DNA from: a virus
Virus record (IMG/VR): IMGVR_UViG_3300019469_000054
Span: 1-58,161 of that record
Strand: one strand, 5' to 3'
Length of the DNA stretch: 58,161 nt
Part shown: piece by piece, positions 2,744 through 58,161 of the stretch
Position numbering within the stretch: the stretch's first letter is position 1
Layout: every line of letters begins with the position of its first letter
Notes under the pieces: model-generated
Database searches by the model: none
What the model saw: only the letters and a program-made list of their open reading frames with translations
Told to the model about the DNA's origin: nothing
Made by a program: the position numbers and the translations under genes

Positions 2744-2913
2744 TTGGTGGTTCCTCTCGGTGTCGAAGTCTGGCGTCGGTCTGGTGATGGCGACATCCAG
2801 TTGACCAACGGGTGCAACCCTAGCACGGCTCTCCGACAGGGGCAACGTGTTGCGCGTCACGAGCGCTCACACACGTACGCGTGTACGTGCGCGCGCAGGA
2901 AACCCCAAATCCG

Positions 2914-3076
2914 CTTTTATATACTCTGCATAGAAAAGTATGAGTCCCGTACAGTAATCTGTACCCACAACATAGAATTTTGGATAAAAAAGTATACTAA
3001 GATCCCTAAATATTATATACTAAATATATACTATATACATATATATATTATATACTACGAAGAGAAAATGAGAGTA
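2914..3076. promoter_or_regulatory. AT-rich island 1 with repeated TATATAC/TTATATAC units. Inverted homologue of island 2 (49431-49646).
   Basis: There is a sharp drop in GC. It shares TACGAAGAGAA (3056-3066, reverse complement of 49453-49463) and AATATATACTATATA (3023-3037, reverse complement of 49465-49479) with island 2. Confidence 0.7.
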
Positions 3077-3096
3077 ATGTAGGTACGTACCTACAT
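3077..3096. repeat. Perfect 20-bp palindrome ATGTAGGTACGTACCTACAT (two inverted copies of the ATGTAGGTAC motif).
   Basis: Read directly. The same GATGTAGGTAC half-site recurs at 49291-49301 and 49406-49416. Confidence 0.9.
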
Positions 3097-3209
3097 CTGT
3101 TTCTCCAACCTCGACTTCTTCCCGTCGTTCCAATCAAAAGCCCCTGTCGGGTTCTCCCTCGGCCGACCGATCGGTTGAATACAATGTGTGCTACAAAAAC
3201 GAGATTTTC

Positions 3210-3224
3210 GGGACTCAAGTCCTA
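3210..3224. promoter_or_regulatory. Operator-like site GGGACTCAAGTCCTA (family GGGACnnnnGTCCTA, copy A).
   Basis: Partial dyad GGACT/AGTCC. Related copies lie at 45381-45394, 49163-49177 and 49221-49235, all in non-coding DNA. Confidence 0.5.
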
Positions 3225-3250
3225 AAATTTCAGTTTTTGACCCCTAGCCC

Positions 3251-3297
3251 TTGATAATGAACAAAGGTAAATTTCTATATGTCAAGAAAACTTGACA
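3251..3297 (+). promoter_or_regulatory. Candidate rightward promoter region with an inverted repeat, upstream of the late operon.
   Basis: TTGATA (3251-3256), an 18-19 nt spacer, then CTATAT/TATATG. The dyad TGTCAAG-aaaa-CTTGACA at 3280-3297 contains TTGACA on both strands. Confidence 0.3.
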
Positions 3298-3463
3298 TTT
3301 ACATCCTGTATTCAACCGAGCGGTCAGTATGAGCCATAGAGTGTGTGCAAGAGCACAGAAATCTCTCGGCCCTGTCGTACTCTGTTGGGCCGTATGTGGT
3401 ACAGTTCTATCTGCGACATCCGGGCAACCGGATCAGAACCACCAACCTTGGAAAGGAACCGAC

Positions 3464-3970
3464 ATGCCATTCGTAGCCGGGAAGGACCAGCAGGCCGAGC
3501 GCGCGCGGTACAGGGAGGATGAGCTCGTTGTCGAACGGGCCAAGTACGCCGCGGAGCTCCTCAGGAAGCGCATCAGGCGCGAGGGGGTCATCCAGTCCCA
3601 GTACTGCCAGGTCTTCGGGTTCAAGGCCCAGCAGACGATTCACAATCACTTCCGCTCCGGGAAGGTCACGCTGATCGATCTCATCCGCATCGTCGGCACC
3701 CCGGGGTTCGAGCTCAGCATCGACGACGTGCTCAGGACGGCCATCAGCATCATCCAGACCACCACGGATGTCGAACTCGATGAGGATGGGGAGCCCGTTC
3801 CCAGGCCACGGAAGCCGAAGAAGGACCGGGGGGCCAAGCTCACGACGGAGAAGGCTCCTGCAAGGCCCGCGCTGAAGGGCACCGAGGTTGATGAGGAGCT
3901 CTTCCTGTCGAAGGACTACAGCCGGTTCGCCAACCTCTTCAAGCAGGCCTCCGGCGAGGAGGACGACTGA
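3464..3970 (+). CDS. HTH DNA-binding protein (168 aa). First gene of the rightward operon.
   Basis: The ATG at 3464 is preceded by GGAAAGGAA. The upstream part of the track ORF (from 3329) looks non-coding. HTH-like segment QSQYCQVFGFKAQQTIHNHFRSGKV. Confidence 0.7.
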   Translation: MPFVAGKDQQAERARYREDELVVERAKYAAELLRKRIRREGVIQSQYCQVFGFKAQQTIHNHFRSGKVTLIDLIRIVGTPGFELSIDDVLRTAISIIQTTTDVELDEDGEPVPRPRKPKKDRGAKLTTEKAPARPALKGTEVDEELFLSKDYSRFANLFKQASGEEDD

Positions 3971-6397: not shown

Positions 6398-6573
6398 TGA
6401 AGGGACGTTCGGTTCCGGCCCTCAGTGCCCTGTCGTACGCTTACGGCAGAGGGCTGGGGGCCGAGTCGGTCGAGGAGCTGCTGGGCTTCTGGGCCTGTTA
6501 TGTTTTCGGATCCCAGTGGCGAGTGATAGGAATTCTCAATGAAAAGAACCGCGGAAGAGCAGAAAGCCATTGA
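6397..6573 (+). CDS. Possible 58-aa protein overlapping the terS start.
   Basis: MKGRSVPALSALSYAYGRGLGAESVEELLGFW... The ATG is coupled to the upstream stop. Uncertain. Confidence 0.3.
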   Translation: MKGRSVPALSALSYAYGRGLGAESVEELLGFWACYVFGSQWRVIGILNEKNRGRAESH

Positions 6574-7286: not shown

Positions 7287-8855
7287 ATGGCGGAGAAGAT
7301 AGACTTTCGGGCTGTCGCAGATCAGTTCGGCACGCGCTCGCACGAGCGGGCAATGCGAGAGGATCCCGTTCTCTGGGCTCAAGATCGGCTCGGGGATCAC
7401 TTGTGGTCGAAGCAGCGTGAGGTTCTTCACTCTTTGCAGACTAATAAGCGCACCCTTGTCGCGTCTTGTCACGCTTCGGGCAAGACTTTCCTGGCCTCCC
7501 GGGCTATCGGGTGGTGGCTCGATGCCCATCCGCACGACCCTACCGAGACCCGCGTGATCACCACGGCCCCGTCGTGGAACCAGGTGAAGAACGTCATGTG
7601 GTCCTATGTCGAGGACCTCCAGTCCAAGGCGAACATGCCGGGACGCATCACTGGTAAAGCGGAGTGGACCTTCCCCGGGTTCAAGACGGCCACTGCGTTC
7701 GGGCGAAAGCCGGCGGACTATGACGAGTCCACCTTTCAGGGATTCCACTCCACCTACGTCCTCGCCGTTGTCGATGAGGCTGGCGGTGTAGCGGAGAACA
7801 TCTTCACCTCTGTCGAGACCATCACCACGAACAAGCACGCCCGTATCCTCGCCATCGCGAACCCGGACGATCCGAACTCGTACATGGCGAAGATCTGGCG
7901 AGACGAGTCGAAGCTCCCGCCTTCGGAACGGAAGTGGAACCTCATCACCATCTCCGCGTTCGACACGCCGAACTTCACCGGCGAGGAGGTGCCGGAGAAG
8001 GCGCAGGACAATCTGCTCCAGAAGGAGTGGGTCGATGACGCTGAGCGCCGTTGGGGCAAGGACGATCCCCGGTACGTGTCGAAGGTTCTCGCTCGGTTCC
8101 CCGACATCGGAGATGACGGGCTGTTCAATCTCGGACGCGTGCTCCAATCCATGAACGAGTGGGCTGATGACGAGTGGAACACGACCGCACCGGTCCACAT
8201 CGGTGTTGACGTCGGTCTGTCCACCACTGGTGACTTCAGTGTGATCTCCACCTGCCAGGATGGCCATGTCGAGGTCGTCGAGCGGGTGAAAGGCTATGAC
8301 GGGAACAGGCTCTCCCGGCTTATCGGGCAGCATGCCAAGCGTCTGCGGGCGGAAGGGCTCGACGTGGACATCCGTATCGACGCCGTGGGTGTCGGACGAG
8401 GTGTCCAGGCTGTCATCGACAACCATGTGCCCGAGGAGATTCCGGTCTACTGGATCGTCGGCAATGCTGCTTCGCCGGATAACCTGAAGTGGTACAACTT
8501 CCGCGCGGCGATGTACGACTCCGTCGCTCAGGCGATCAATGTTGGCGAGTTGTCGGTTCCGCCTGATGAGGCCTCTGGAGAGAAGACCGAGGGGCTCTTC
8601 GACGAGTTCCGCTCGATCCTCTACGAGTACAGGGGGACCAAGCTCCTGATCCGCGGGAAAGATGAACTGAAGAGGAAGGGCGAACCATCGCCTGACGTTC
8701 TAGACTCGATCTGCTACGCGTCGATGCCGAGCAGCCTTTTAACAGATGGGACCGACTCTCTCATCGAGGCTGATACCCTAATGGAGAGTACGGATTCCGA
8801 GTACTCGCCTATAGACGAGTGGGGTAACGAGGAGTGGACCTTCGCCCCAGCCTGA
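7287..8855 (+). CDS. terL: Terminase large subunit.
   Basis: 522 aa. RBS GAAGGAGG. Walker A-like SCHASGKTF. Typical TerL ATPase and nuclease layout, upstream of the portal gene. Confidence 0.9.
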   Translation: MAEKIDFRAVADQFGTRSHERAMREDPVLWAQDRLGDHLWSKQREVLHSLQTNKRTLVASCHASGKTFLASRAIGWWLDAHPHDPTETRVITTAPSWNQVKNVMWSYVEDLQSKANMPGRITGKAEWTFPGFKTATAFGRKPADYDESTFQGFHSTYVLAVVDEAGGVAENIFTSVETITTNKHARILAIANPDDPNSYMAKIWRDESKLPPSERKWNLITISAFDTPNFTGEEVPEKAQDNLLQKEWVDDAERRWGKDDPRYVSKVLARFPDIGDDGLFNLGRVLQSMNEWADDEWNTTAPVHIGVDVGLSTTGDFSVISTCQDGHVEVVERVKGYDGNRLSRLIGQHAKRLRAEGLDVDIRIDAVGVGRGVQAVIDNHVPEEIPVYWIVGNAASPDNLKWYNFRAAMYDSVAQAINVGELSVPPDEASGEKTEGLFDEFRSILYEYRGTKLLIRGKDELKRKGEPSPDVLDSICYASMPSSLLTDGTDSLIEADTLMESTDSEYSPIDEWGNEEWTFAPA

Positions 8856-32147: not shown

Positions 32148-32846
32148 TCAGCACTTGATGGCCTTGTCCAGGTACCACCTCGCCTTCTTCAGGTCCTGCT
32201 TCCTGTCGTCCTTGCGGCCAGCCCGGAGCAAGTACTTGCCAACTTGCCACAGAAGCGGGTCCTTGTTGAAGGCGGCCATGAGCACATGGAAGACCTCGAC
32301 ATCGCCGACGTTCTCGACCTGCTCGGCCAGTGCGTTACCCAGCCACGCATAGTGCTTCGGGGCGTTCACGACGTCGGGCTTCTCCTCGACAGGCGCCATC
32401 TGCTCCAGCGGCATTCGGGTGTAGTTCGAGCCTACACACACAGCACCATACTCGTTGATGCGGAAGTAGTCCTCGATCTGCGAGCCCCCCTGTCGAGCGT
32501 CCCAGGTCCCGACGTAGTCGTAGCCCGGGCCCGTGCAATCCTCAGTCAGATAGAAAGCCGGCTCATTCACCGCGTAGACGATCGTGCGAATCTGGGTGAG
32601 CATCTGGCGTACATCGCTCGCTGAGACACAGCGCGTCTTGCGGAAGAAGGTGTAGCCGTTGTGCTGAACGCATCCGACGAGCGTGTCGCCCCTGTAGTGG
32701 ATAGCGATCACACAGGGCGTGTTACTGACGCAGAAGTCGTACCGGTACATGAACGGCTTGTCGTCGATGTCGGTGTGCTCCTGCCCGGCAGCGACTCCGA
32801 GCTGCTCATCGCAAATCTCCTGGAACCAATCAATCGGCGTTGACAT
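32148..32846 (-). CDS. Hypothetical protein with a DUF3310-like C-terminus (232 aa).
   Basis: ATG at 32846 preceded by GGGAGG. C-terminal pattern KHYAW...FNKDPLLWQVGKYLLRAGRKDDRKQDLKKARWYLDKAI. Confidence 0.7.
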   Translation of the reverse strand: MSTPIDWFQEICDEQLGVAAGQEHTDIDDKPFMYRYDFCVSNTPCVIAIHYRGDTLVGCVQHNGYTFFRKTRCVSASDVRQMLTQIRTIVYAVNEPAFYLTEDCTGPGYDYVGTWDARQGGSQIEDYFRINEYGAVCVGSNYTRMPLEQMAPVEEKPDVVNAPKHYAWLGNALAEQVENVGDVEVFHVLMAAFNKDPLLWQVGKYLLRAGRKDDRKQDLKKARWYLDKAIKC

Positions 32847-33339
32847 GACGACCTCCCATTCGTGCGGCCAGACTGGCATCGTGGCATGTCTTGATCGAGT
32901 AGTAGTAGAAGTGGCGTGCAGCATCCCGCACGTCGTCGGCGTCAGGACAACCGACATGCTTGCCTGTGGGCCAGAAACCCAGGGCCTTGAGCGTCTTGTC
33001 GGTGATGACTCCCTTGGCCTGCCCGGGGGTCTGCCAGACGATTCGAGCATTCGGGTTCCATGCGGTGGCGCAGTACGACAGGGTGCTGTTGACCTTGACG
33101 GTGGTGAGGTCCGCGCGGAACTTGTTGTTGGGTCGGAGGTCGAACTGCTCGATGACGAGGGTGGTCGGCTCGCTGGTGAGCTTGGTCAGGAGCTCGGTGA
33201 CCGTCTCCTCCCAGCGCTCGCTGCGGAACTGACCGAAGTCGAGAATCTCCGAGCCCTCGTCGTACGGATTGCTGGGCTGCTGACCCAGGACCCAACCCGT
33301 GGAGACTCCGGCATCGACAGCCAGGATGCGCTCACTCAT
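32830..33339 (-). CDS. RuvC-like Holliday junction resolvase.
   Basis: 169 aa. RILAVDAGVSTGW, LVIEQF and DADDVRDAARH acidic catalytic-type motifs. Confidence 0.75.
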   Translation of the reverse strand: MSERILAVDAGVSTGWVLGQQPSNPYDEGSEILDFGQFRSERWEETVTELLTKLTSEPTTLVIEQFDLRPNNKFRADLTTVKVNSTLSYCATAWNPNARIVWQTPGQAKGVITDKTLKALGFWPTGKHVGCPDADDVRDAARHFYYYSIKTCHDASLAARMGGRHVNAD

Positions 33340-43609: not shown

Positions 43610-44134
43610 TTACCTTTCTGCAATGTTCGGAGCGGTTGTGGTAGCGATTTGATGCTGATAGTGGGAGCCCAAGGACTTATCCCCGTAAGGGACGATCGGC
43701 GGCGTGTCGAGTTCCAGAATCGACAACTGAGCAATGGCACAACCCATGGGCAACTCCAACGGTTTTGCTGCGAGATTGCAGAGCTCCAGCGTGATCGTGC
43801 CATAGAAACCAGGATCGATGAAGCCGGCCGTGATGTGCACCAAAAGCCCGCGCCGTGCCCAGGAGGACTTGCCCTCGACACGGGCAACGAGATGCGCAGG
43901 AATGCCCACCGTCTCCGTCGTCCGAGCCAGTGCGAACTCCCCGGGCTTGAGGAGAATGGCGTCCGTGACCTTGTCATCACGATGCTCAGTGGGCAGTCCG
44001 ACGTCGCGAACGACATCGCGATGAAGGTGCATCTCCACGCTCGCTGGCTGAATCGCGCCGGCCGACAGTGGCGTAATGGTGAGCACTCCACTGTCGAGGA
44101 GGCGCGTAATGGTGGTCGAAGAGAGCATGCTCAT
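43610..44134 (-). CDS. dcd: dCTP deaminase family protein.
   Basis: 174 aa. Patterns ILLKPGEFALARTTE, VEGKSSWARRGLLVH and GFIDPGFYGTITLELCN are typical of Dcd/dUTPase-fold deaminases. Confidence 0.85.
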   Translation of the reverse strand: MSMLSSTTITRLLDSGVLTITPLSAGAIQPASVEMHLHRDVVRDVGLPTEHRDDKVTDAILLKPGEFALARTTETVGIPAHLVARVEGKSSWARRGLLVHITAGFIDPGFYGTITLELCNLAAKPLELPMGCAIAQLSILELDTPPIVPYGDKSLGSHYQHQIATTTAPNIAER

Positions 44135-45131: not shown

Positions 45132-45380
45132 CGTGTGCTCCTTCCTGTTCGATTCCTTTGACGACTCCATACTGCCCTACATCTTGTAGTCGCGCAACCC
45201 TCCACTACGTGACACCGCTCACTTATCAATCATTGGTCTCGATACGACACGGGCGCCTCCTCGCCGGCTGAAGGCCTCGCCCGCCCATATCTGCACACCT
45301 TGTACAGTTCACAGTCTGAGATTTTGCACCATGCATTGTGTCAAAAGTGACAGCGACCTCTGAAATGAACAGTTCAATAA

Positions 45381-45394
45381 GGACTGTGGTCCTA
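45381..45394. promoter_or_regulatory. Operator-like site GGACTGTGGTCCTA (copy B), followed directly by GGTAC.
   Basis: Lies in the 45132-45597 divergent intergenic region and matches the GGGACnnnnGTCCTA family. Confidence 0.45.
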
Positions 45395-45597
45395 GGTACT
45401 GCGTCATATTTCAGGCTCCAAACAAACCACTCTGTCCATATAACGAGAATTCTCCCCGCGGTGTAGCACTACAAAGCCCTGAAAACCACTTATAAATCGG
45501 TAGTACAACTCTCAACAACCGCATGATTCCAACGAATTTGACACGCGTGGTCCTCTATAGGCGTCCAACCGAACACCCGAACCGAAAGGGAAACCCC

Positions 45598-45995: not shown

Positions 45996-47450
45996 TCAGA
46001 TGAGCCCTGAGACCTTCAGATCCGCATACCGCTGGTCAAGCCTAGGAATCACAGATTCGGTATCGACAGTGCTCGGGCACTGGAGCAACCACCTGACCAC
46101 GGTGCCCGTCTGGCCCGTTCGATGCAGCCGGCCCTGTGCCTGCACGCAGCGCACCACCGATGGATCAAGCCCGACCCACACTTCATGACGACAGACCCGC
46201 TGTAGTCCGTCAACACCTTCGGCGACGGCAGGGATCACCGCGCAGAGAATCTGTGGGCCGTCCTTGTCGAGGAATCGCTTCCACTCGTCCTTGTGCTCAC
46301 CATCCACTCGTGCGCACGAGTAGCCCGCCTTCTGCAACTGAGCAACCAACGGCGCCTGGAACTTTTTCGACGGCGAGTAGACGACGACTTTCTCATCACC
46401 GATGTCGCGCAAGATATCGAGCAATGCCGTGATCTTGCCGCTTCGCGAACCAGGATCGAAGTACCACTCGTCCTCTCCGCCATCACCGACACGCACGCTC
46501 ATCTGCCCGAGCGTCGCCTGCCGCAGCCTCATGTCGCGCGTCACCGGGAGTCCGACAACGGCGGGATGATCATCCATCCACGCCACGCTCTCATCGCGCA
46601 ATTGCTTGTACTGCCTGCGCTGTTCCGCGGTCATCGCGCAGTCCACGCGGCGGATATCCACCGGTGGCAGCGCCCCGGCAACATCCTCAATCCGCATGTC
46701 CTGCCACTCGCCCCGTGCCTTGTGCCCTTTCGACAACAGCCCTGGTCGCTTCTCAGCGCCATACGTCACCGAGTACGGCCCACCGAAATAGCAAGGCTCA
46801 CTCGTGAAGAATGCTTGCGCGAACTTGGTGAAGCCCGGGTATTTTTTGGGCCACAAATATTTCAGTGCACCGTAGATGTTCACGGGCTGACCGCCCGCCG
46901 GCGTAGCGCTGAGCGCCAAACGATGCCGCGCCTTCACCTTGCACAGCACTTGCGACGTAACAGTCCTGAAGTTGCAAGCCCTGTGAATCTCATCGCCGAT
47001 GACCCAATCGAACTCAATACCGCCCAGCACTCTTGTCGTCGCCTTGCTCTTCACCTTTCCCGCTCGTGCGTCATAACCCTTCCTCTTCGACACACTCGCC
47101 AGTAGTTCCCAGCCGATGAACGACACACCCCGGAGCTTGTCGCCGTTCAGTAGTGATTCAAGCGCCTCACGTTCAGTCTTCCTACGCTTACTCAGCACAT
47201 TGAACTGAACCTTTCCGTCGGGCCAGACCTGACCCACCGCACGACGCCAGCCGCTCTCCGTGCGCAGCGGGGCTACCACGAGTATCGATAGATCGCCGGG
47301 CTCAACTCCCTCCTGTCGTGCCGTACGGTCAATAACCCACAGCGACATGAGCGTCTTGCCGCACCCTGTTCCCGCGCTCACAAGGCCCGTGCCGCCCGCG
47401 GCCACAAGACCACGGATGGCGCGTTCCTGAGCCTCAACCGGCTCAATCAT
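45996..47450 (-). CDS. SNF2/DEAD-like superfamily 2 helicase.
   Basis: 484 aa. Walker A GTGCGKTLMS, DEXH box VIGDEIHRACN, and C-terminal helicase motifs (QAQGRLHRTGQ). Confidence 0.85.
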   Translation of the reverse strand: MIEPVEAQERAIRGLVAAGGTGLVSAGTGCGKTLMSLWVIDRTARQEGVEPGDLSILVVAPLRTESGWRRAVGQVWPDGKVQFNVLSKRRKTEREALESLLNGDKLRGVSFIGWELLASVSKRKGYDARAGKVKSKATTRVLGGIEFDWVIGDEIHRACNFRTVTSQVLCKVKARHRLALSATPAGGQPVNIYGALKYLWPKKYPGFTKFAQAFFTSEPCYFGGPYSVTYGAEKRPGLLSKGHKARGEWQDMRIEDVAGALPPVDIRRVDCAMTAEQRRQYKQLRDESVAWMDDHPAVVGLPVTRDMRLRQATLGQMSVRVGDGGEDEWYFDPGSRSGKITALLDILRDIGDEKVVVYSPSKKFQAPLVAQLQKAGYSCARVDGEHKDEWKRFLDKDGPQILCAVIPAVAEGVDGLQRVCRHEVWVGLDPSVVRCVQAQGRLHRTGQTGTVVRWLLQCPSTVDTESVIPRLDQRYADLKVSGLI

Positions 47451-48297
47451 CGATGCTCCTCACCCACGCGTACGCCTCGCCGGCCATCCGACGGACGTCC
47501 TCCTCGTCCTCGGGCAGCAGCTCGTCATAGGGCATCCACTCCCCGGATCCAATCCGGTGCTCCAACTCGATCCGGCCCTCCCCGTAGCCGACACTCTCGT
47601 AGTACGCCCTACGGCTCAGGTTGAACGTGATAGAGGATCGTGTCCACACGGTCATCTGGTCCTCGGACGAGCGCACAGCCCAGCCATCCTCCGCAGTCTC
47701 CACAGCCACGGTCTCAACCCACGCTTCGACCATCTGGTCTTTCGCGCACTCAGTCATCGCATCGATCACAGCGTCTGCGTCGTCGGAAGCATCACCGTCG
47801 AGGTAATCCGCTGTCTCCGGGTTGCACACCGACCACACGAACGCGCCGTCCTTGTCGTAGTAGCCCCGCACCATCACGTCTCCCCACGTGATCGTCCAGG
47901 AGTCGCCCTTCTCGTCCTGCGGTCCGAGAATGTCGTAGGCCTCACCCCGGTGCTCCAACCACGACACAACTTCGTCGCGAATATCCGCATCGCACCAATG
48001 CTGCCACTCCATCGTTGTTCGAGCGGCATCCTTCACGGCGTCCTCCAGGTGCGAGTACCCGTCCACATCGAACGGCGTACCGCCCGCCGTCACTTCTACC
48101 GCGATCCAATCCTCCTGCCCATCGCCGTACGGGTCGCGCATCCACTCCACCGACACGGGCCCCATGCGCAGCCAGCCACGCGTGTCGTCATCGCTCCAGC
48201 CGCAATCGACCCCTCCATTGCCGAGCACGTACGCCTCATTGGTCCATTCCAGTGCCCTGCACAGATCCTCAGCCTTGTCCGCGATCTTCTCGTTCAT
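47443..48297 (-). CDS. Strongly acidic, Trp-rich hypothetical protein (284 aa).
   Basis: ATG at 48297 preceded by GAGGAGAG. Its end overlaps the helicase start by 8 nt. Confidence 0.7.
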   Translation of the reverse strand: MNEKIADKAEDLCRALEWTNEAYVLGNGGVDCGWSDDDTRGWLRMGPVSVEWMRDPYGDGQEDWIAVEVTAGGTPFDVDGYSHLEDAVKDAARTTMEWQHWCDADIRDEVVSWLEHRGEAYDILGPQDEKGDSWTITWGDVMVRGYYDKDGAFVWSVCNPETADYLDGDASDDADAVIDAMTECAKDQMVEAWVETVAVETAEDGWAVRSSEDQMTVWTRSSITFNLSRRAYYESVGYGEGRIELEHRIGSGEWMPYDELLPEDEEDVRRMAGEAYAWVRSIDD

Positions 48298-48337
48298 GGT
48301 TCTCTCCTCAGCCCTTCGTAAGTATGTGTGTGTGTGC

Positions 48338-48565
48338 TCAGTTCTCGTGCGCAGCGGCGTAGAGGTATTCCGCTGCGATCTCGACATCGGCCTCATCGGT
48401 GATCCAACCCTCTCCCTCTTCGCCGCAGCGCCACCATGCCCCGGCCAGGCACTCCGTCTCGTCATCATCGATCTCGTAGTAGTCGTGCAGCCAGTCCTCG
48501 AGGATGATGCTCCCCGCGTCGCCCCGCGTGTCGGTCACGACCCGTCCGGTCCATTGCGTCTTCAT
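48338..48565 (-). CDS. Small acidic protein (75 aa).
   Basis: ATG at 48565 preceded by CAGGAGGAA. Asp/Glu/Trp-rich. Confidence 0.65.
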   Translation of the reverse strand: MKTQWTGRVVTDTRGDAGSIILEDWLHDYYEIDDDETECLAGAWWRCGEEGEGWITDEADVEIAAEYLYAAAHEN

Positions 48566-48644
48566 TCTCGGTTCCTCCTGTTGGTCCGGGCTCTGCGACA
48601 AGCCCTCTCGGTTTGTTGTTGTGCTCTCAGTCTAACTACATCAT

Positions 48645-48660
48645 GTCGTCCAGATCAACT
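48645..48660 (-). promoter_or_regulatory. Conserved 16-mer (minus strand GGACGACATGATGTAG) preceded by TTGATC. Candidate promoter/operator.
   Basis: Identical 16-mer at 49052-49067. Both copies lie upstream of leftward genes and share the flanking TTGAyn/TCAAC. Confidence 0.45.
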
Positions 48661-48662
48661 TC

Positions 48663-48899
48663 TCACTCTGTGATACTCATCACCGTCCATACCTCCCCGT
48701 CCGGCGTCTCGTCCGGAAGCCTCCTCATGTCGCCCCCGAGCCTGGAGACCACCGTGCTCGCCATCCTCAGCCACGACAGCATCTCGGTCCACTGCAACAT
48801 GTACAACTCGTCCTCCTCGTCGGCCCCCAGGGCTTCGACAACGGCCCGAACGTCCGACAGGTCAACGGCCACCCCGCTCCGCGTAATCAGCACGTGCAT
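48663..48899 (-). CDS. Hypothetical protein (78 aa). First clear gene of the leftward middle operon.
   Basis: ATG at 48899 preceded by GAAGGAGGA. Confidence 0.65.
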   Translation of the reverse strand: MHVLITRSGVAVDLSDVRAVVEALGADEEDELYMLQWTEMLSWLRMASTVVSRLGGDMRRLPDETPDGEVWTVMSITE

Positions 48900-49051
48900 C
48901 ACACATCCTCCTTCATAAGCATCTCGATGGCCCGCATGATCACGGGCCCGGGTACGCACGACAGGTCCCCGCCGGCTCTCTCCCGCACCCTCGTCTCCTT
49001 CCTCTCGCTACCGGGCAGGGCGTCTCCCTTCCGGCTTCGAGATCTACTCTC

Positions 49052-49067
49052 CTACATCATGTCGTCC
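49052..49067 (-). promoter_or_regulatory. Second copy of the conserved 16-mer (GGACGACATGATGTAG on the minus strand), preceded by TTGACG.
   Basis: Exact repeat of 48645-48660. Confidence 0.45.
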
Positions 49068-49162
49068 CCGTCAACCCTGCCCGACATGACCCCGCTCACA
49101 CTCACTGACTGTCATGACACAACCTTCGACAGAGAGCTCTGACCTCTGTGCACTAGCCCATC

Positions 49163-49177
49163 GGGACCAAGGTCCTA
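49163..49177. promoter_or_regulatory. Operator-like site GGGACCAAGGTCCTA (copy C).
   Basis: Perfect dyad GGACC-aa-GGTCC. Part of a ~35-bp direct repeat with copy D. Confidence 0.5.
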
Positions 49178-49220
49178 TGGAGGTTGACTACCTAGTGACG
49201 ATATGGCTCAAGCCCAAGTT

Positions 49221-49235
49221 GGGACTAAGGTCCTA
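49221..49235. promoter_or_regulatory. Operator-like site GGGACTAAGGTCCTA (copy D).
   Basis: 58 bp from copy C. The flanks also align (…GAG(T)GGTTrACTAmsTAGT). Confidence 0.5.
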
Positions 49236-49290
49236 AAGAGTGGTTACTAAGTAGTTAGTAGGTAGTGATGCGGTGGTGACGACACGGGCA

Positions 49291-49301
49291 GATGTAGGTA
49301 C
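49291..49301 (+). promoter_or_regulatory. GATGTAGGTAC motif copy.
   Basis: Same 11-mer as at 49406-49416 and as both halves of the 3077-3098 palindrome (cAGATGTAGGTAC on the minus strand there). Confidence 0.4.
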
Positions 49302-49405
49302 ATCCACCGGGGAGGGTACCCCGGAGTACGACAGGCCCGCGATAGCAACGATTATGTATCGAACAGGTGTTCGAAAGAGAGGGCTGAGACGGGGTGGAAA
49401 TGGGC

Positions 49406-49416
49406 GATGTAGGTAC
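49406..49416 (+). promoter_or_regulatory. GATGTAGGTAC motif copy.
   Basis: Exact repeat, 36 nt upstream of TTCTCTTCGTA and the AT-rich island. Confidence 0.4.
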
Positions 49417-49430
49417 AAAAATCCCAAATG

Positions 49431-49646
49431 TTTCAATTATGTTACGGCCCAATTCTCTTCGTACTATATAGTATATATTATTATATTATATAAATATTAT
49501 ATACAGAATATAATGATAGTAGTATAAATACTTGGTATCTAGTATAGTATCTTGTACCATACATTAATGTCATAGTAGTATAATATTCTATACTACTCTT
49601 ATATATTCTGAGTACGATATATACAAATGCATACATAGGGTATATA
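49431..49646. promoter_or_regulatory. AT-rich island 2 (TATATA/AGTATA repeats). Inverted homologue of island 1.
   Basis: Sharp GC drop. Shares TTCTCTTCGTA (49453-49463) and TATATAGTATATATT (49465-49479) with the reverse complement of 3023-3066. Confidence 0.7.
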
Positions 49647-50433
49647 GGGGGTTCTGGTTCGCCATCGCCCGTGTCGCCACGTGATCGATCGTTCGCTCGT
49701 TCGAACACGAGAACAAAAGAACGAAAGATGAACACACAAGAGTCATCGCCCTTGTCGCGCTCTGTCGGCAGGCCCGTGTCGGGCCCCGTAGGCCGACCCG
49801 CCCACCGGGTACGGGTCCCCCGTCCTGTCGCACCCGGCTACCGTCCCGCCTCAGATACCTCTCAGACGCGTTGTAAGCCAATCTGAGACGATTTCAGCCC
49901 TGAGTCAGTGCAGGACACTGGAGAGCCCCCTAGAGGCCGTCTACGGGCCTTACAGCACGTCAGCCCCCCTGTGCACGACACAGCGCGATCGATTCGACAG
50001 GGGCACGAACGAGGACGGAGACTGAACAGCCCCTCTCGCCCGTGTCGCCAGGGCCACGAGGGTTGCGATCTTAACAGCGTTAACGAGACAGAAATCACAC
50101 CACACGAAGCCGAATTTCGAGGCGAAGGAAATCGGTTGCTACCGAGTGCGGGGCGGGGGGAGGGGGTGCGACCCCGCACGCCCGTACGAGGGAGGACCCC
50201 GCAATGGAAGACCCGCGAGAGATCAACGCTATGGAGTTGTCAACGAACCCTGCTCCGGCCCTGTCGAGCCCCTACTGCTGGACCTCCTTTCTATAAATAA
50301 GTATAGGCTCAATCCCTGCCCCGGTCAACCCCCCGCAGAGCCTCGTTACACGTTCGTAACAGCCGGGTTGTGCTACTCTTGAAGACTCTTCGACACCCCA
50401 CCCAGCAGGCCGCTGCAACGGCCCCGGGCATGA

Positions 50434-50470
50434 CACCGCCCCTGTCGTCTTGTGAACAACAGGGGCGGTG
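50434..50470 (-). terminator. Terminator hairpin at the end of the early leftward operon.
   Basis: CACCGCCCCTGT / ACAGGGGCGGTG, a perfect 12-bp stem with a 13-nt loop, 13 nt after the stop at 50483. Confidence 0.65.
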
Positions 50471-50482
50471 CTTCGTCGGTTG

Positions 50483-50753: not shown

Positions 50754-51548
50754 CTAGACTGCGACAGGCGCTCGAAGAACACCGCCGTGGCGGTAGCCCT
50801 CGGAGGCGTCGATGTCCTCGAGGACGTAGTCGTCGATCGAATCCCGCTTCTTGAGCCGCAGACGGGGGAACGGGAAGACCTCACGAGTGAGCTGCTCCTT
50901 CACCTGCTCCACGTGGTTGTCGTAGATGTGGCAGTCGCCCCCGGTCCAGATGAGCTCGCCGACCTCCAGATCGGCGAGCTGGGCGAGCATGTGGGTGAGC
51001 AGGGCGTAGGAGGCGATATTGAAGGGCACGCCCAGGAACAGGTCGGCGGAGCGCTGATAGACCTGGAGCGACAAGCGCCCCTCCCCACTGACGTAGCACT
51101 GGAAGAAGGCGTGGCAGGGGGCCAGGGCCATCTCCCCCAAGTCACCGACGTTCCAGGCGGACACCAAGTGACGGCGGGAGTGCGGATCCGCCCGCAGGCC
51201 GTGAATGAGTTTCTTGATCTGATCATGGGCGCTGCCCCAGTTGCGCCACTGGACGCCGTAGAGGGGCCCGACATAGCCGTCCGTGTCGGCCCAGTCGTCC
51301 CAGATGTGCACGTCCTGCCCCTGGAGCCACGAGATGTTATCCTCACCGCGGAGGAACCAGAGGAGTTCCGCCTTGATCGGCTTCATGGGGACGTACTTGG
51401 TGGTGATCCGGGGGAAACCCTTCATCAGGTCGTACCTCAGCTGACGACCGAAGACGGCGCGGGTGCCGACACCGGTGCGGTCCTGTCGTGATTCGCCGTT
51501 GTCGAGGATGTCCTTCAGCAAGCGCTCGTACTGGTCGTCAATAACCAT
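50754..51548 (-). CDS. thyA: Thymidylate synthase (ThyA type).
   Basis: 264 aa. [12 protein letters not shown] and [26 protein letters not shown] match ThyA active-site regions, including the Asn of PFNIASY. Confidence 0.95.
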
Positions 51549-51760: not shown

Positions 51761-51966
51761 CAGAACAGTGCCTCCTGCGAGCCCCAGACGTTGACGGGGT
51801 CCAGGGCGTCGTAGGTGTCGAGGCGGGGGTTCTCGCCGGCGAGATCGGTGGTGCGGAACGCCCGGGTCTCTTCGTCGTGTGTGATGTCGGTGATAATGCG
51901 GCTCTCCTTGTTCTTGAAGAGGAGAATGTCGCCTACGCGACAGTTGCGGGCTTGCTTGGTAGGCAT
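51760..51966 (-). CDS. Hypothetical protein (68 aa).
   Basis: TGATG coupling at both ends. Confidence 0.6.
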   Translation of the reverse strand: MPTKQARNCRVGDILLFKNKESRIITDITHDEETRAFRTTDLAGENPRLDTYDALDPVNVWGSQEALF

Positions 51967-52838
51967 CAGAGGTTCCTTTCGTTGTTGATAGCAGTGAGTC
52001 CGCGCTGGAGCATGAGGCGGGCCTGGAGTCTGACGACCGCGTTGCCCGCGAGGCGAATGGAGGCGGTGCGGGACAGGCCGACGGCATGGGCGGAGGGCAG
52101 GCCCATGAGCCATTCGACGAAAGCAGCGTTCAGTCGGCCTTCGTCGTCCTTGAGTCGAGGCTCGGGGAGGCCTGTAGCGTTCGTCCAAAGGGCAGAATCG
52201 AGTGGAGGGGGGCGGTTGCCTTCATGGACCCAGGTCTGAAGGTTGGGACCACCGCCTCGACCTGAGCGACTGGGCCCTGTCGAGGACGATGCGGTGGGTG
52301 ACGGCACCATGTGTCGAGGTACGACTTTACGGACGACATTGATGCGACGAGGTTCGAAGCAACGCCGGGCCGCGACGAGCATGATGCGCTCACGGCGGTG
52401 CGGAGCCCCGATCTCCCAGGCTCCCCCGGACGCTACGGTAGCGCGGTAGCCGTGCGTGATCATCAGCCAGACAGCCAGATCGAGGTAGGTGCGGTAGCCG
52501 CCAGGGACGTTCTCCGCGACGATGAGGTCCGCCCTACCTGCCACGGCCATGTCGAGGGCCTCGTGGATGAGGCTGCTTCGGGTTCCGGAGCCCTTACCCG
52601 CGACGGGAAGGTCCTGGCAGGGCGCCCCGAGGGTGACGATGGAGCCCTCCGGGACGTCCTGGTCGCGGAAGTCCGAGTGGATCTTCACGTTGCGGAAGCG
52701 GGCCTTCAGGTACTTGCGGGCGGGTCCGTAGTTGTCGGAGAACGACTGGAAGCAGGTGAACTCATTCAGGCCGTCGGCAACGGCCCGGGCGAGCTCGCCG
52801 GTGCCGGAGAACATGTCGATAATCGGTGTGGAGGTCAT
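51966..52838 (-). CDS. DNA (cytosine-5) methyltransferase.
   Basis: 290 aa from the ATG at 52838. Motif I IDMFSGTG, motif IV GAPCQDLP and motif VI ENVPG. Confidence 0.85.
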   Translation of the reverse strand: MTSTPIIDMFSGTGELARAVADGLNEFTCFQSFSDNYGPARKYLKARFRNVKIHSDFRDQDVPEGSIVTLGAPCQDLPVAGKGSGTRSSLIHEALDMAVAGRADLIVAENVPGGYRTYLDLAVWLMITHGYRATVASGGAWEIGAPHRRERIMLVAARRCFEPRRINVVRKVVPRHMVPSPTASSSTGPSRSGRGGGPNLQTWVHEGNRPPPLDSALWTNATGLPEPRLKDDEGRLNAAFVEWLMGLPSAHAVGLSRTASIRLAGNAVVRLQARLMLQRGLTAINNERNL

Positions 52839-52839
52839 G

Positions 52840-53049
52840 TCAGTCACCCTTGCACTCGATCTCGACCTCACCAGTGGCCTCGAAGATGTTGATCCGGGTG
52901 ATCCTGTAGGTCTCATTCCCCCTCCGAATGCGAACCGGTGCACCACAGGCGGCTCGTGGGTCGAGAAGGTCGTCAGCGAGCTCAAATACGGTGGGCGGCT
53001 CCGAGTCGTAGCTGAGGTGGGTAACAGCCTCGGTCGTTGAAGAGTACAT
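52840..53049 (-). CDS. Hypothetical protein (69 aa).
   Basis: The ATG at 53049 has GGAGGA 10 nt upstream. The ATG at 53058 is too close to the RBS. Confidence 0.55.
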   Translation of the reverse strand: MYSSTTEAVTHLSYDSEPPTVFELADDLLDPRAACGAPVRIRRGNETYRITRINIFEATGEVEIECKGD

Positions 53050-57190: not shown

Positions 57191-58161
57191 ATGGCTAAGC
57201 AGTTCGTGGGGAAGGCCACAAGTTACACGGTTGACGGCGCTGAAGCGCGTTTCATCGACAACGACGAGCAGACGCAGGCACTCAACACGCTTCGGAACGA
57301 GGTGCCTGGTCTTGCGGATGCAAGAATCGAGGCTCGGATCGAGGCGTACAAGCAGGAGGTCAACGCGAAATTCGCCCTCAAGAGCGCTCTGGACGGCCTT
57401 CTGAAGGCTGCGGACGCCGCTGCGACCTACGCCCCCAAGGCGGCGCTGGAGGGGCTCCTGAAGGCCACGGATGCCGCCGCTACTTATGCATCCAAGGGCG
57501 ACCTGGCGGCGGCCAAGGAGGCGCTGGAGAAGGGCCTGAAGGAAAACACGGATACCGACACGAGGCGTTGGAGCGTCATCCGCACCAACAAGACAGATGT
57601 CGCCGACCTGAAGACCCGGGTGAAGGCCCTTGAGGACAAGCCCGCGGCCCCCGGCGGCCAGGGCGGAGGCGTGCAGGCAGGCGACACGGGCTGGGTGGAC
57701 ATCGCTCAGGGCCAGATCGGCGCGGGACAGTACCAGTACCGCGTTGTCGGAGCCATGATGTTCTTCCGGAAGAAGGGCGATGAGTGGCGAGCGCTTCCGA
57801 AGTCCGCGACAACTGTGACGCACGTCGCCACGCTGCCGCAGACCTACGGGAAGCTGGAGCGGGCGAGCACATTGGTCGTCAAGAAGGGCGACGGTGATGC
57901 GTGGACCTCGGACGGCTCGATGATCGAGATCTGGCCGAACTGGACCGTGAAGTACACCTGCCTGGATCTTCAGGGTACCTACGCCATGGACCTGCTCAAG
58001 ACCACGGTCGAGAAGCCGCTGCTCACCCCGGCCCAGCCCGGGGGCGGCGTCACCGAGGAGAAGCTCAACGAGCTCAAGACCAATCTTAAGGTGAAGATCG
58101 CCGCGGCCACGTCCGAGATCGCCTCCACCAAAGCTGTGATGGTTGGCGTGAAGGACAAGGT
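57191..58161 (+). CDS. Tail-fibre-like coiled-coil protein, 5' part. It continues through the circular junction to 230, about 379 aa in total.
   Basis: ATG at 57191 preceded by GGAGGG. No stop before the window end. Repeats of the LKxxDAAATYAxK type and ALEDKP/ALENKP coiled segments. Confidence 0.8.
   Translation, partial: MAKQFVGKATSYTVDGAEARFIDNDEQTQALNTLRNEVPGLADARIEARIEAYKQEVNAKFALKSALDGLLKAADAAATYAPKAALEGLLKATDAAATYASKGDLAAAKEALEKGLKENTDTDTRRWSVIRTNKTDVADLKTRVKALEDKPAAPGGQGGGVQAGDTGWVDIAQGQIGAGQYQYRVVGAMMFFRKKGDEWRALPKSATTVTHVATLPQTYGKLERASTLVVKKGDGDAWTSDGSMIEIWPNWTVKYTCLDLQGTYAMDLLKTTVEKPLLTPAQPGGGVTEEKLNELKTNLKVKIAAATSEIASTKAVMVGVKDK
58101..58161. repeat. Terminal copy of the 61-bp overlap (identical to 1-61).
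   Basis: Exact identity on reading. Confidence 0.95.

What the first reader, a model, noticed from the sequence alone, without database searches (positions are those of the whole stretch)
2914..3297. Composite regulatory module 1: AT-rich island, 20-bp perfect palindrome, operator-like dyad and promoter-like dyad upstream of the late operon
A ~160-bp AT-rich island in otherwise GC-rich DNA is packed with TATATAC units. It is followed by TACGAAGAGAA, then the perfect palindrome ATGTAGGTACGTACCTACAT (3077-3096), then GGGACTCAAGTCCTA (3210-3224). After that come TTGATA/TATAT promoter-like elements and the dyad TGTCAAG-aaaa-CTTGACA (3280-3297). The same ordered set (AT-rich, TACGAAGAGAA, GTACCTACATC, GGGAC..GTCCTA sites) occurs in mirror orientation at 49163-49646, upstream of the leftward replication operon. 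The two largest operons therefore appear to be headed by copies of one ~400-bp control region. That suggests coordinated activation or repression by a phage-encoded factor, or paired replication-origin-like elements. The island also faces the orphan leftward gene 1793-2743.
Basis: seen in the sequence. Interest (0 to 1): 0.65.

Follow-up and report, generated by a model that had tools for sequence, protein, structure and literature searches.

The report
Mirrored AT-rich control/origin-like module pair
Two long gene-free stretches of a 58-kb GC-rich phage genome carry mirror-image copies of one AT-rich unit about 300 bases long with protein-binding palindromes; the pair is real and conserved, most likely a pair of replication origins or control regions of a familiar kind, but its function is not shown.

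Summary
Every motif sits at the stated coordinates, and the two regions are true paralogues in mirror orientation. A profile of module 1 from 15 relatives hits 49691-49370 (minus strand) at E=1.6e-13. The reciprocal search hits 2855-3115 at E=1e-15. Composition-preserving shuffles reach at most 2.9 bits, against 42.6.

These are the only strong AT-rich islands in the complete 58.1-kb IMG/VR phage genome. Both are conserved in all close relatives that carry the site.

The shared unit is about 260-320 bp, not 400. It holds a GC flank, the AT island, TACGAAGAG and GTACCTACATC.

The conserved promoters are extended -10 elements near the genes: TGCTAGGGT (2825-2817, minus) and TGGTACAGT (3397-3405, plus).

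Best reading (about 0.4): paired origin-type unwinding elements with flanking protein-binding sites, as in SPP1 oriL/oriR. Rival (about 0.3): a strong promoter/leader module. This is an ordinary kind of element in a new, abundant, uncultured phage clade.

The parts
2817..2845 (-). Proximal promoter of the leftward gene 1793-2743: TTGCCC, 17 nt, TAGGGT, with a TG extension (TGCTAGGGT)
   Evidence: Read from the sequence. It is the only minus-strand TGnTAnnnT in the intergenic region. Block 2784-2829 has 0.95 pairwise identity in 15 relatives and is kept in subclade B.
2868..2897 (.). 30-nt perfectly alternating pyrimidine/purine GC tract (Z-DNA-prone) at the left edge of the shared unit
   Evidence: The sequence varies among relatives (0.715 identity) but the alternation is kept.
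2907..3055 (+). AT-rich island of module 1 (GC about 0.19-0.25) with four TATACTA copies on the + strand. Conserved sub-blocks: CATAGAAAAGTATG, AATATTATATA, AAATATATACTATATAC
   Evidence: Overall identity is 0.806, about equal to codon position 3 (0.755-0.80); the sub-blocks reach 0.91-0.96.
3056..3066 (+). TACGAAGAGAA boundary motif, preceded by the -10-like TATA[C/T/G]T
   Evidence: Only two copies in the window. Kept in most relatives in both modules. Lost from module 1 in L018, L019 and subclade B.
3077..3096 (.). 20-bp perfect palindrome ATGTAGGTAC|GTACCTACAT. The 16-bp core GTAGGTACGTACCTAC is invariant apart from one base in L019
   Evidence: (0.957 identity). In IMG/VR the core is found in 17 contigs, all but one already among the relatives fetched here; the other was not examined.
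3097..3160 (+). Pyrimidine-rich, G-poor tract on the operon-sense strand. A mirror counterpart lies at 49405-49240 on the minus strand
   Evidence: GC skew -0.22 here, +0.32 at 49201-49400.
3165..3183 (+). Left arm of an internal inverted repeat, GACCGATCGGTTGAATACA
   Evidence: nhmmer self-hit at E=3e-5. Identity 0.874. Changes in the two arms are not compensatory, so these look like two DNA sites rather than an RNA stem.
3210..3224 (.). Dyad GGGACTCAAGTCCTA, a member of the TAGGAC-N4-GTCC[C/T] family
   Evidence: Only 0.756 identity in relatives. Kept in subclade B, absent from G013.
3254..3297 (.). ATAATGAACA block, then TTTCTATATGTCAAG-N4-CTTGACA dyad
   Evidence: The arms have 0.91-0.96 identity and the N4 spacer 0.39. 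The 35-bp dyad block is deleted in subclade B. No sigma-70-type match was found.
3308..3328 (-). Right arm of the internal inverted repeat (reverse complement CTGACCGCTCGGTTGAATACA)
   Evidence: 0.854 identity.
3371..3382 (+). CCTGTCGTACTC, shared with module 2 (49335-49324, minus strand)
3397..3405 (+). Extended -10 promoter TGGTACAGT of the late operon. The predicted start is near 3412-3413, followed by the conserved GCGACATCCGG and the hairpin ATCCGG-GCAA-CCGGAT (3418-3433)
   Evidence: (0.93 and 0.99 identity). The distant relative G016 has TTGACG, 17 nt, TACGTT with TGTGG at the same place.
45380..45394 (.). Fourth dyad of the family (AGGACTGTGGTCCTA), in a third conserved intergenic region
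   Evidence: GGTCCTAGGT is invariant in 14 genomes.
49046..49074 (-). Proximal promoter of the replication operon: TTGACG, 17 nt, GAGAGT
   Evidence: The block TTGACGGGGACGACATGATGTAGGAG has 0.98 identity. Variants GAGGAT and GAGGGT keep A2 and T6.
49163..49235 (.). Two dyads, TAGGACCTTGGTCCC (49177-49163) and TAGGACCTTAGTCCC (49235-49221), 58 bp apart
   Evidence: 0.86-0.89 identity.
49291..49416 (-). Two GTACCTACATC half-sites (49301-49291 and 49416-49406), same orientation, 115 bp apart, with CCTGTCGTACTC between them
49417..49452 (-). Hypervariable spacer, replaced by unrelated palindromes in several relatives
   Evidence: The window's own copy has no structure (z = +1.97); G010/G011 fold at z = -4.7.
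49453..49463 (-). TACGAAGAGAA, mirror copy
49464..49691 (-). AT-rich island of module 2 (GC 0.17-0.26) plus its GC flank. Four TATACTA copies lie on the minus strand. This is the end of the region homologous to module 1

Best explanation
Each module is a long intergenic region containing one copy of an anciently duplicated unit of about 260-320 bp. The unit consists of a GC flank, a 150-240-bp AT-rich island at about 20% GC, the boundary motif TACGAAGAG, and GTACCTACAT sites. The two copies lie in mirror orientation, about 11.7 kb apart on the circular map.

The most likely function is a pair of replication-origin-type elements. Under this reading:
- The AT island is the easily melted unwinding element.
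- The adjacent palindrome or half-sites and the TAGGAC-N4-GTCCC dyads are binding sites for phage proteins (an initiator or regulators).
- Module 2, next to the replication operon, would play the oriL role. Module 1, at the head of the packaging/structural operon, would play the oriR role, as in Bacillus phage SPP1.

The flanking genes are transcribed from separate sigma-A-type promoters near the genes (extended -10 in module 1), which lie outside the shared unit.

Shown: the duplication, its orientation, its conservation, and the position and conservation of the promoter-like elements.
Inferred: unwinding, protein binding and initiation of replication.
For: (1) These are the only strong AT islands in a 61% GC genome. 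At least seven other gene starts carry correctly oriented extended -10 motifs without any AT island. The islands are therefore not the generic promoter context.

(2) The two units are homologous by reciprocal profile search, at E=1.6e-13 and 1e-15, against at most 2.9 bits for composition-preserving shuffles.

(3) The AT island is the one shared feature kept in every lineage and both modules that I could examine. The flanking motifs come and go: G013 module 2 lacks the half-sites and dyads, and subclade B and L018/L019 lack TACGAAGAG in module 1.

(4) AT-richness is maintained although most island positions evolve at about the synonymous rate. Only sub-blocks are constrained.

(5) Repeated protein-site-like elements flank the island. 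The palindrome core is invariant apart from one base in L019 and seen only in this clade's contigs in IMG/VR. Two half-sites lie 115 bp apart and two dyads 58 bp apart.

(6) The conserved promoters lie outside the shared unit, which sits between them.

(7) GC skew changes sign sharply at module 2, and the cumulative minimum falls there. The leftward genes on either side have opposite skew.

(8) There is a precedent. SPP1 has two origins about 13 kb apart on the circular genome, with similar organisation (repeats plus an AT-rich unwinding element). One lies in the replication genes and one in the late region (PMC6316719).
Against: - No initiator protein could be recognised. The small flanking proteins have no Pfam, NCBIfam, PHROG or PDB match, and the AlphaFold models were unusable.
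- There are no DnaA boxes.
- The skew switch extends only about 3 kb to the left and stems from three genes with atypical composition.
- The GTACCTACAT sites are missing from module 2 of G013, so they cannot be a universal initiator box for both copies.
- The distant relative G016 (about 61% identity in the one protein compared) has only a 90-bp (TA)n patch and no second island.
- Some features also fit a transcribed element. Both copies face their operons. TATA[C/T/G]T directly precedes ACGAAGAG. Both are followed by a sense-strand pyrimidine tract.
- No replication or coverage data could be obtained.
Confidence: 0.4

Rival explanations
1. Purely transcriptional module. The AT island is a strong host-RNA-polymerase promoter cluster or upstream activating region. 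Its last -10-like hexamer, TATA[C/T/G]T, starts transcription within ACGAAGAG. The following palindrome or hairpin, GTACCTACATC and the C-rich tract form a regulatory leader (5' stabilising hairpin, attenuator, or nut/put-like antitermination site). The leader is duplicated so that one phage factor controls both large operons.
For: - Both copies point toward their operons.
- TATA[C/T/G]T, varying only at position 5, directly precedes ACGAAGAG in 24 of 29 sequences.
- Four TATACT(A) copies face the operon in each island.
- Four weak sigma-70-type matches lie in the module 2 island, against 0.7 expected.
- The palindrome passes the terminator-like scan on both strands.
- Outer stems with G-T pairs fold better on the sense strand.
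- A C-rich, G-poor tract follows in both modules.
Against: - The scan found no promoter in module 1.
- TACGAAGAG is lost from module 1 in three lineages.
- The U-tract after the palindrome is replaced by C-rich sequence in subclade B, so the terminator is not conserved.
- RNAalifold found almost no covariation.
- The module 2 hairpin is absent in the window and in G002.
- There is no Rfam match.
- Conserved promoters already exist next to the genes.
- Co-regulating late and replication operons from one promoter type is not an obvious design.
Confidence: 0.3
2. Architectural or silencing target. The islands are bound by an AT-preferring nucleoid protein of the GC-rich host (Lsr2-like) or of the phage. 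That protein bridges the two copies or insulates the divergent promoters.
For: Extreme AT islands in GC-rich DNA are the known preference of such proteins (general knowledge). There are two copies in inverted orientation. The composition is maintained while most positions drift.
Against: - No Lsr2, H-NS or HU-like gene was found among the proteins scanned.
- The host is unknown.
- There is no A-tract phasing.
- Sequence-specific sub-blocks and boundary motifs are conserved, which composition alone does not explain.
Confidence: 0.1
3. Remnant of a mobile or recombinogenic repeat (MITE-like element or a recombination site) that landed in two intergenic regions and is tolerated rather than used.
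For: There are two inverted copies with defined boundaries (AG(G)AA(A)CCCC ... TACGAAGAG). A hypervariable spacer lies next to one boundary. Several relatives' contigs end inside the islands.
Against: - Each copy is orthologously conserved in position, orientation and sequence in every close relative that carries the site. The paralogues are much more diverged from each other, so the duplication is old and has been kept.
- There are only two copies per genome.
- The core palindrome occurs only in this clade's contigs in IMG/VR.
- Contig breaks are expected at AT-rich inverted repeats for assembly reasons.
Confidence: 0.07
4. Packaging recognition site (cos/pac). Module 1 lies directly upstream of the packaging genes, and the symmetric palindrome would be the cleavage site.
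For: The position is just upstream of the HTH protein gene 3464, the probable small terminase 6539 and the large terminase 7287. The site has two-fold symmetry.
Against: - A second homologous copy next to the replication genes has no role in packaging.
- The record's 61-bp terminal repeat lies inside a gene far from the module, which is an assembly overlap.
- No read-end data were available.
Confidence: 0.05

Closest known systems
Bacillus phage SPP1 oriL / oriR (gp38-binding repeats plus an AT-rich unwinding element)
   Same: Two distant loci of similar organisation lie about 12-13 kb apart on the circular map. One is at the replication genes and one in the late region. They are the strongest AT-rich islands of the genome, with repeats next to the AT region (PMC6316719).
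   Different: There is no sequence or protein homology, and no gp38-like initiator was recognised. Here the copies are inverted and both intergenic, whereas SPP1 oriL lies inside gene 38. The host is GC-rich. Function is untested.
Lambda ori (iterons, AT-rich region, palindrome) and the lactococcal c2/936-type intergenic origins
   Same: An AT-rich stretch sits beside dyad-symmetric repeats and a palindrome, and lies between divergently transcribed gene blocks (from my own knowledge, not tested here).
   Different: Lambda ori lies inside gene O and has four regularly spaced iterons. Here the repeats are few, of two kinds and irregularly spaced.
Lambda nutL/nutR and HK022 putL/putR (mirror-image cis elements in the leaders of two divergent operons)
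   Same: The same ordered element is present once in each of two oppositely oriented operon leaders: a linear motif followed by a hairpin, then a C-rich tract.
   Different: No covariation supports an RNA structure. No N-like protein or boxA sequence is present. The hairpin sequence is invariant as DNA in module 1 and absent in the window's module 2. The elements lie 350-500 bp upstream of the conserved promoters rather than downstream of them.
Operator families of phage repressors (for example lambda OL/OR, or the mycobacteriophage L5 stoperators)
   Same: The TAGGAC-N4-GTCC[C/T] dyad occurs four times and only in three intergenic regions.
   Different: The dyads do not overlap the conserved promoters; they lie 90-175 bp upstream. 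No cognate repressor was identified. The whole family is absent from relative G013.

Membership tests
Phage replication origin (initiator repeats + unwinding element; SPP1 or lambda kind) | An AT-rich, easily melted segment much below genome GC | tested here: met
   GC is 0.17-0.26 over 150-240 bp, against 0.61 for the genome. These are the lowest-GC 100-bp windows of the genome.
Phage replication origin (initiator repeats + unwinding element; SPP1 or lambda kind) | Repeated binding-site-like sequences directly beside the AT region | tested here: met
   There are palindrome or half-sites, dyads, and four TATACTA copies per island. Actual protein binding was not tested.
Phage replication origin (initiator repeats + unwinding element; SPP1 or lambda kind) | An origin-binding initiator encoded by the phage | tested here: inconclusive
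   No initiator family was recognised among the flanking proteins, and many remain unknown. The structure models were unusable.
Phage replication origin (initiator repeats + unwinding element; SPP1 or lambda kind) | Strand-composition switch at the site | tested here: inconclusive
   There is a sharp sign change and the cumulative minimum at module 2. It is driven by three atypical genes and does not extend further. Nothing comparable occurs at module 1.
Phage replication origin (initiator repeats + unwinding element; SPP1 or lambda kind) | Initiation of DNA synthesis at the site | not testable with these tools
This needs experiments.
Sigma-70 / sigma-A promoter | -35 and -10 hexamers at 16-18 nt, or an extended -10 | tested here: met
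This is met for the proximal elements: 2817-2845 (-), 3397-3405 (+) and 49046-49074 (-). They are conserved in relatives. Inside the islands there are only weak matches, and only in module 2.
Sigma-70 / sigma-A promoter | A mapped transcription start | not testable with these tools
Intrinsic terminator / attenuator (the palindrome) | A stable stem-loop followed by a U-tract, kept among relatives | tested here: not met
   The window passes the simple scan. In subclade B the tract after the same palindrome is C-rich (CCTACACCCCCTCG).
nut/put-like antitermination RNA | A conserved RNA secondary structure supported by compensatory changes | tested here: not met
   Zero of 6 and 2 of 14 pairs show compensatory change. 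The module 2 hairpin is absent in the window and in G002.
Repressor operator family (TAGGAC-N4-GTCCC) | Several copies of one dyad, confined to regulatory DNA | tested here: met
   There are four sites with at most 1 mismatch, all intergenic. The copies in module 2 and region 3 are conserved.
Repressor operator family (TAGGAC-N4-GTCCC) | Overlap with the promoter it controls | tested here: not met
   The dyads lie about 90-160 bp (module 2) and about 175 bp (module 1) upstream of the conserved promoters.
Any described RNA family (Rfam 15) | A match at or near the gathering score | tested here: not met
   There was no match in the whole window or in either module at E up to 5, apart from one chance miRNA hit.

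The most novel reading that the evidence does not exclude
The two mirrored units are a functional pair. Module 2 fires theta replication. Module 1, carrying the full palindrome as a tight protein-binding site at the head of the packaging operon, stalls or redirects forks, or couples late transcription to replication. This would be an SPP1-like oriL/oriR switch evolved independently in an abundant, uncultured clade of GC-rich phages. Alternatively, the units are DNA/RNA elements of a so far undescribed antitermination system shared by both operons.
Probability: 0.15. Interest if true: 0.6.

Novelty: new member of a known kind. Interest (0 to 1): 0.36.

Why it matters
The phage belongs to a very abundant uncultured group. 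There are hundreds of 56-58-kb contigs in ENA, Logan and JGI data, none of its regulatory proteins has a recognisable family, and no host is known. This work pins down its non-coding control DNA: two paralogous AT-rich units, an almost invariant clade-specific palindrome, a four-member dyad family and a set of extended -10 promoters. That gives concrete targets for origin cloning, DNA pull-downs and promoter mapping once a host is found. It also gives a marker (GTAGGTACGTACCTAC) for recognising the clade. In kind, however, AT-rich repeat-bearing intergenic origins and control regions are well known in phages.

Tried and rejected
- **RNA-seq and read evidence.** Transcription starts, genome ends and coverage gradients were not tested.
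- **blastn against isolated phages.** There was no match. The portal is only about 30% identical to Arthrobacter and Microbacterium phages.
- **Prophage or host search in bacterial and archaeal genomes with the portal.** Nothing was found.
- **Rfam, at gathering and permissive thresholds.** Nothing was found. There are no tRNAs.
- **RNA structure of the TACGAAGAG-to-GTACCTACATC segment.** Individual relatives fold into unrelated hairpins, but the window and G002 do not. RNAalifold finds almost no covariation. I rejected this as firm evidence for an RNA element.
- **Internal inverted repeat 3165-3183 / 3308-3328 as an RNA stem.** Rejected, because the substitutions are not compensatory.
- **Palindrome as a conserved terminator.** Rejected, because the U-tract is lost in subclade B.
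- **TGAACA-N17-GTC (ECF-like) promoter idea.** There are only 7 matches genome-wide, 2 of them in the regions of interest, and no sigma factor was found. I dropped it.
- **Resemblance of TATAG..GAAGAG to single-subunit RNA polymerase promoters.** No RNA polymerase gene is present, so I dropped it.
- **DnaA boxes and A-tract phasing.** None were found.
- **GC3 skew as an origin test.** Ambiguous.
- **AlphaFold models of the two flanking proteins.** pLDDT was 50 and 36. No fold search was made.
- **Module 2 of subclade B.** Its records are not held, so it could not be fetched. The lower-identity relatives I picked (L098/L099) have a module 2 like that of the main group.
Full report
**What the window is.** The window is a complete IMG/VR virus record. 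It is 58,100 bp plus a 61-bp assembly overlap, with 1-61 identical to 58101-58161. GC content is 61%.

It is a siphovirus-type genome:
- A rightward packaging/structural operon runs from 3464: an HTH-like 168-aa protein, a 728-aa P-loop/nuclease protein, a probable small terminase, the large terminase at 7287, the portal at 8867, the protease, the capsid, and a 2176-aa tape measure.
- A leftward replication operon runs from 48959 down to about 32148. It includes an SNF2-type helicase, a dCTP-deaminase-like protein, exonuclease, AAA_24, DUF669, primase and DNA polymerase.

No isolated phage matches at the DNA level. The portal is about 30% identical to those of Arthrobacter and Microbacterium phages. 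No prophage relative was found in bacterial genomes, so the host is unknown. The Shine-Dalgarno sequences and promoter types fit a GC-rich Gram-positive host.

**The observation.**
- TACGAAGAGAA occurs only at 3056 (+) and 49453 (-).
- GTACCTACATC occurs at 3087 (+), 49291 (-) and 49406 (-). Its palindromic partner at 3077 makes a 20-bp perfect palindrome, the longest in the genome.
- Windows of 30 bp with at most 30% GC exist only at 2907-3316, 49407-49648 and a 34-bp patch at 50284-50317.

The similarity of the two regions is far beyond chance:
- The longest inverted repeat of the whole window joins 2993-3066 and 49453-49526.
- There are five shared exact words of 11 nt or more, against 0.2 expected and a maximum of 3 in 1000 composition-preserving shuffles.
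- A profile HMM built from module 1 of 15 genomes finds 49691-49370 on the minus strand at E=1.6e-13.
- The reciprocal profile finds 2855-3115 at E=1e-15.
- Block shuffles of module 2 reach at most 2.9 bits, against 42.6 for the real sequence.

The shared unit is therefore about 260-320 bp. It consists of a GC flank, the boundary AG(G)AA(A)CCCC, the AT island, TACGAAGAG, a spacer, GTACCTACATC, and the start of a pyrimidine-rich tract. Further downstream only scattered words are shared (CCTGTCGTACTC and the dyads).

**Conservation.** Nineteen close relatives at about 80% protein identity were fetched from IMG/VR, and more from ENA and Logan. The clade is very abundant: 577 homologues of one neighbouring protein and hundreds of 56-58-kb contigs. 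Module 1 (alignment A1) and module 2 (A2) are present at the same places and in the same orientation in every close relative that carries the site.

Pairwise identity compares as follows:

| Element | Pairwise identity |
|---|---|
| Third codon positions of flanking genes | 0.755-0.80 |
| Palindrome (3077-3096) | 0.957 |
| TGTCAAG / CTTGACA arms | 0.91-0.96 |
| N4 spacer between those arms | 0.39 |
| Promoter blocks | 0.93-0.99 |
| AT island overall | 0.806 |
| Sub-blocks within the island | 0.91-0.96 |
| Dyad at 3210 | 0.756 |

- The 16-bp palindrome core is invariant across all the module 1 sequences examined, subclade B included, apart from one base in L019.
- In IMG/VR the core occurs in 17 contigs. 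All but one are relatives already fetched, and the other was not examined.

A second subclade (L091, L094; 68% identity in the HTH protein) has the same gene order and a 706-bp intergenic region. It keeps the palindrome core, the island, the dyad and both promoter blocks. It has lost TACGAAGAG, the T-rich tract after the palindrome, and the whole 35-bp TTTCTATATGTCAAG-N4-CTTGACA block.

Relative G013 keeps both islands and TACGAAG but lacks the half-sites and all dyads in module 2. The more distant G016 has only a 90-bp (TA)n patch upstream of the late operon and none of the motifs. The island itself is thus the one shared feature kept everywhere I could look. The flanking sites are lineage-specific.

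**Where the promoters are.**
- The consensus scan finds no sigma-70-type promoter in module 1, and only weak ones inside the island of module 2.
- Module 1 contains exactly two extended -10 motifs (TGnTAnnnT), each pointing at its gene. TGCTAGGGT (2825-2817, minus strand, with TTGCCC 17 nt upstream) serves gene 1793-2743. TGGTACAGT (3397-3405, plus strand) sits 58 nt before the ATG at 3464.
- Both lie in the most conserved blocks and survive in subclade B.
- G016 has TTGACG, 17 nt, TACGTT preceded by TGTGG at the same place.
- The same motif type sits, correctly oriented, in front of the genes at 6539, 7287, 15870, 17021 and 39558.
- Module 2 has an almost invariant TTGACG, 17 nt, GAGAGT at 49074-49046.

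The roughly 525 bp between the two divergent promoters of module 1, which contains the shared unit, is therefore upstream of both promoters and not needed for them. The stretch 3329-3463 is not coding, because relatives differ by indels of 2, 10 and 11 nt.

**RNA or DNA element?**
- Rfam gives nothing.
- The palindrome passes a terminator-like scan in the window, but its U-tract is not conserved.
- In module 2 the spacer between TACGAAGAG and GTACCTACATC is hypervariable. In several relatives it is replaced by unrelated palindromes, and folding is usually better on the operon-sense strand. The window itself (z=+1.97) and G002 have no structure there.
- RNAalifold finds almost no compensatory change.
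- The inverted repeat 3165-3183 / 3308-3328 changes without compensation.

I conclude that the conserved elements act mainly as double-stranded DNA sites. A transcribed leader cannot be excluded.

**Other tests.**
- GC skew switches sign sharply at module 2, which is also the cumulative minimum.
- Third-position skew shows that the leftward genes right of module 2 behave like all other genes. The three genes at 45996-48959 are reversed. The effect is local, so it is only weak support for an origin.
- There are no DnaA boxes and no A-tract phasing.
- None of the small flanking proteins has a Pfam, NCBIfam, PHROG or PDB relative.
- AlphaFold models of the 168-aa and 316-aa proteins were too poor to use.
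- The N-terminal 95 residues of the 168-aa protein, with an HTH-like segment, are almost invariant across both subclades, as is the palindrome 370 bp upstream of its gene. This is a lead, not evidence.

**Interpretation.** Two readings remain.

Origin-type reading (about 0.4). This rests on five points:
- The islands are unique and extreme, while ordinary promoters in this genome have none.
- Composition is maintained with only partial sequence constraint.
- Repeated site-like elements lie beside the island.
- The unit lies outside and between the conserved promoters.
- The layout closely parallels SPP1, whose two origins have similar organisation (repeats plus an AT-rich unwinding element). 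They lie about 13 kb apart on the circular genome, one at the replication genes and one in the late region, and they are among its strongest AT islands (PMC6316719). Here the copies are about 11.7 kb apart.

Transcriptional reading (about 0.3). This rests on three points:
- Both copies are oriented toward their operons.
- The -10-like TATA[C/T/G]T sits directly before ACGAAGAG.
- A sense-strand C-rich tract follows in both.

The two readings are not exclusive, since transcription-activated origins are known. I rate architectural binding, a tolerated repeat and a packaging site lower. Chance is excluded.

**Verdict.** The element is a new member of a known kind, a phage intergenic origin or control region with an AT-rich core and protein-binding repeats, in a previously undescribed and abundant phage clade. 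Interest is moderate.

Noticed in passing
whole window, e.g. 3142, 3370, 2834(-), 49329(-), 13163, 50440: The octamer CCCTGTCG occurs 49 times (29 on the + strand, 20 on the - strand), against about 4 expected from base composition. Relative G013 has 47 copies; the more distant G016 has only 5. It also forms the stems of terminator-like hairpins (CCCCTGTCG...CGACAGGGG).
   Followed up: partly
48960-50482: About 1.5 kb has no credible ORF: no codon-position GC pattern, no 3-periodic conservation, and junk translations. It contains a good minus-strand promoter-like site, TTGACC-17-TATACT (50328-50300), in a 34-bp AT patch. That patch is present in 9 of 13 relatives and deleted in 4. A hairpin terminator of the upstream leftward operon lies at 50437-50469.
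   Followed up: partly
2868-2897: A 30-nt perfectly alternating pyrimidine/purine GC tract (Z-DNA-prone) abuts the AT island. The sequence differs among relatives but the alternation is kept.
   Followed up: partly
3287-3290: The 4-nt spacer of the TGTCAAG/CTTGACA dyad is far more variable than synonymous sites (AAAA, TTTT, GGAA, AAAG, CGTC), while the arms are nearly invariant. The whole block is missing in subclade B.
   Followed up: yes
48960-48990: The window lacks 28 bp that all 13 aligned relatives have, including the ATG and the first codons of the first gene of the replication operon. Here the gene must start at GTG 48959.
   Followed up: no
45996-48959: The three genes next to module 2 have a G-rich coding strand (GC3 skew +0.21 to +0.34 on their own strand). 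This is the opposite of every other gene in the genome.
   Followed up: partly
45171-45597: This third conserved intergenic region has long invariant blocks: GGTGTAGCACTACAAAGCCCTGAAAACCAC, AATTTGAC...CCTCTATAGGCGTCCAAC, a TGTCAAAAGTGACA dyad, and GTACAGTTC as in module 1. It also holds the fourth TAGGAC-N4-GTCCT dyad.
   Followed up: partly
43610-44134, 50754-51548, 51966-52985, 32148-33050: A set of nucleotide-metabolism genes is present: dCTP-deaminase-like, thymidylate-synthase-like, C5-cytosine-methylase-like, and DUF3310/nucleotide-kinase-like. It hints at modified DNA bases.
   Followed up: no
L005, L007, L014, L016 (contig ends): Several relatives' contigs end inside or next to the module 1 AT island. 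The likely cause is assembly breaks at an AT-rich inverted repeat, but real DNA ends were not excluded.
   Followed up: no
relatives: The clade is very abundant and diverse in public metagenomes, with hundreds of 56-58-kb contigs and 14 variants in one IMG sample. It has no cultured member and no host assignment.
   Followed up: no
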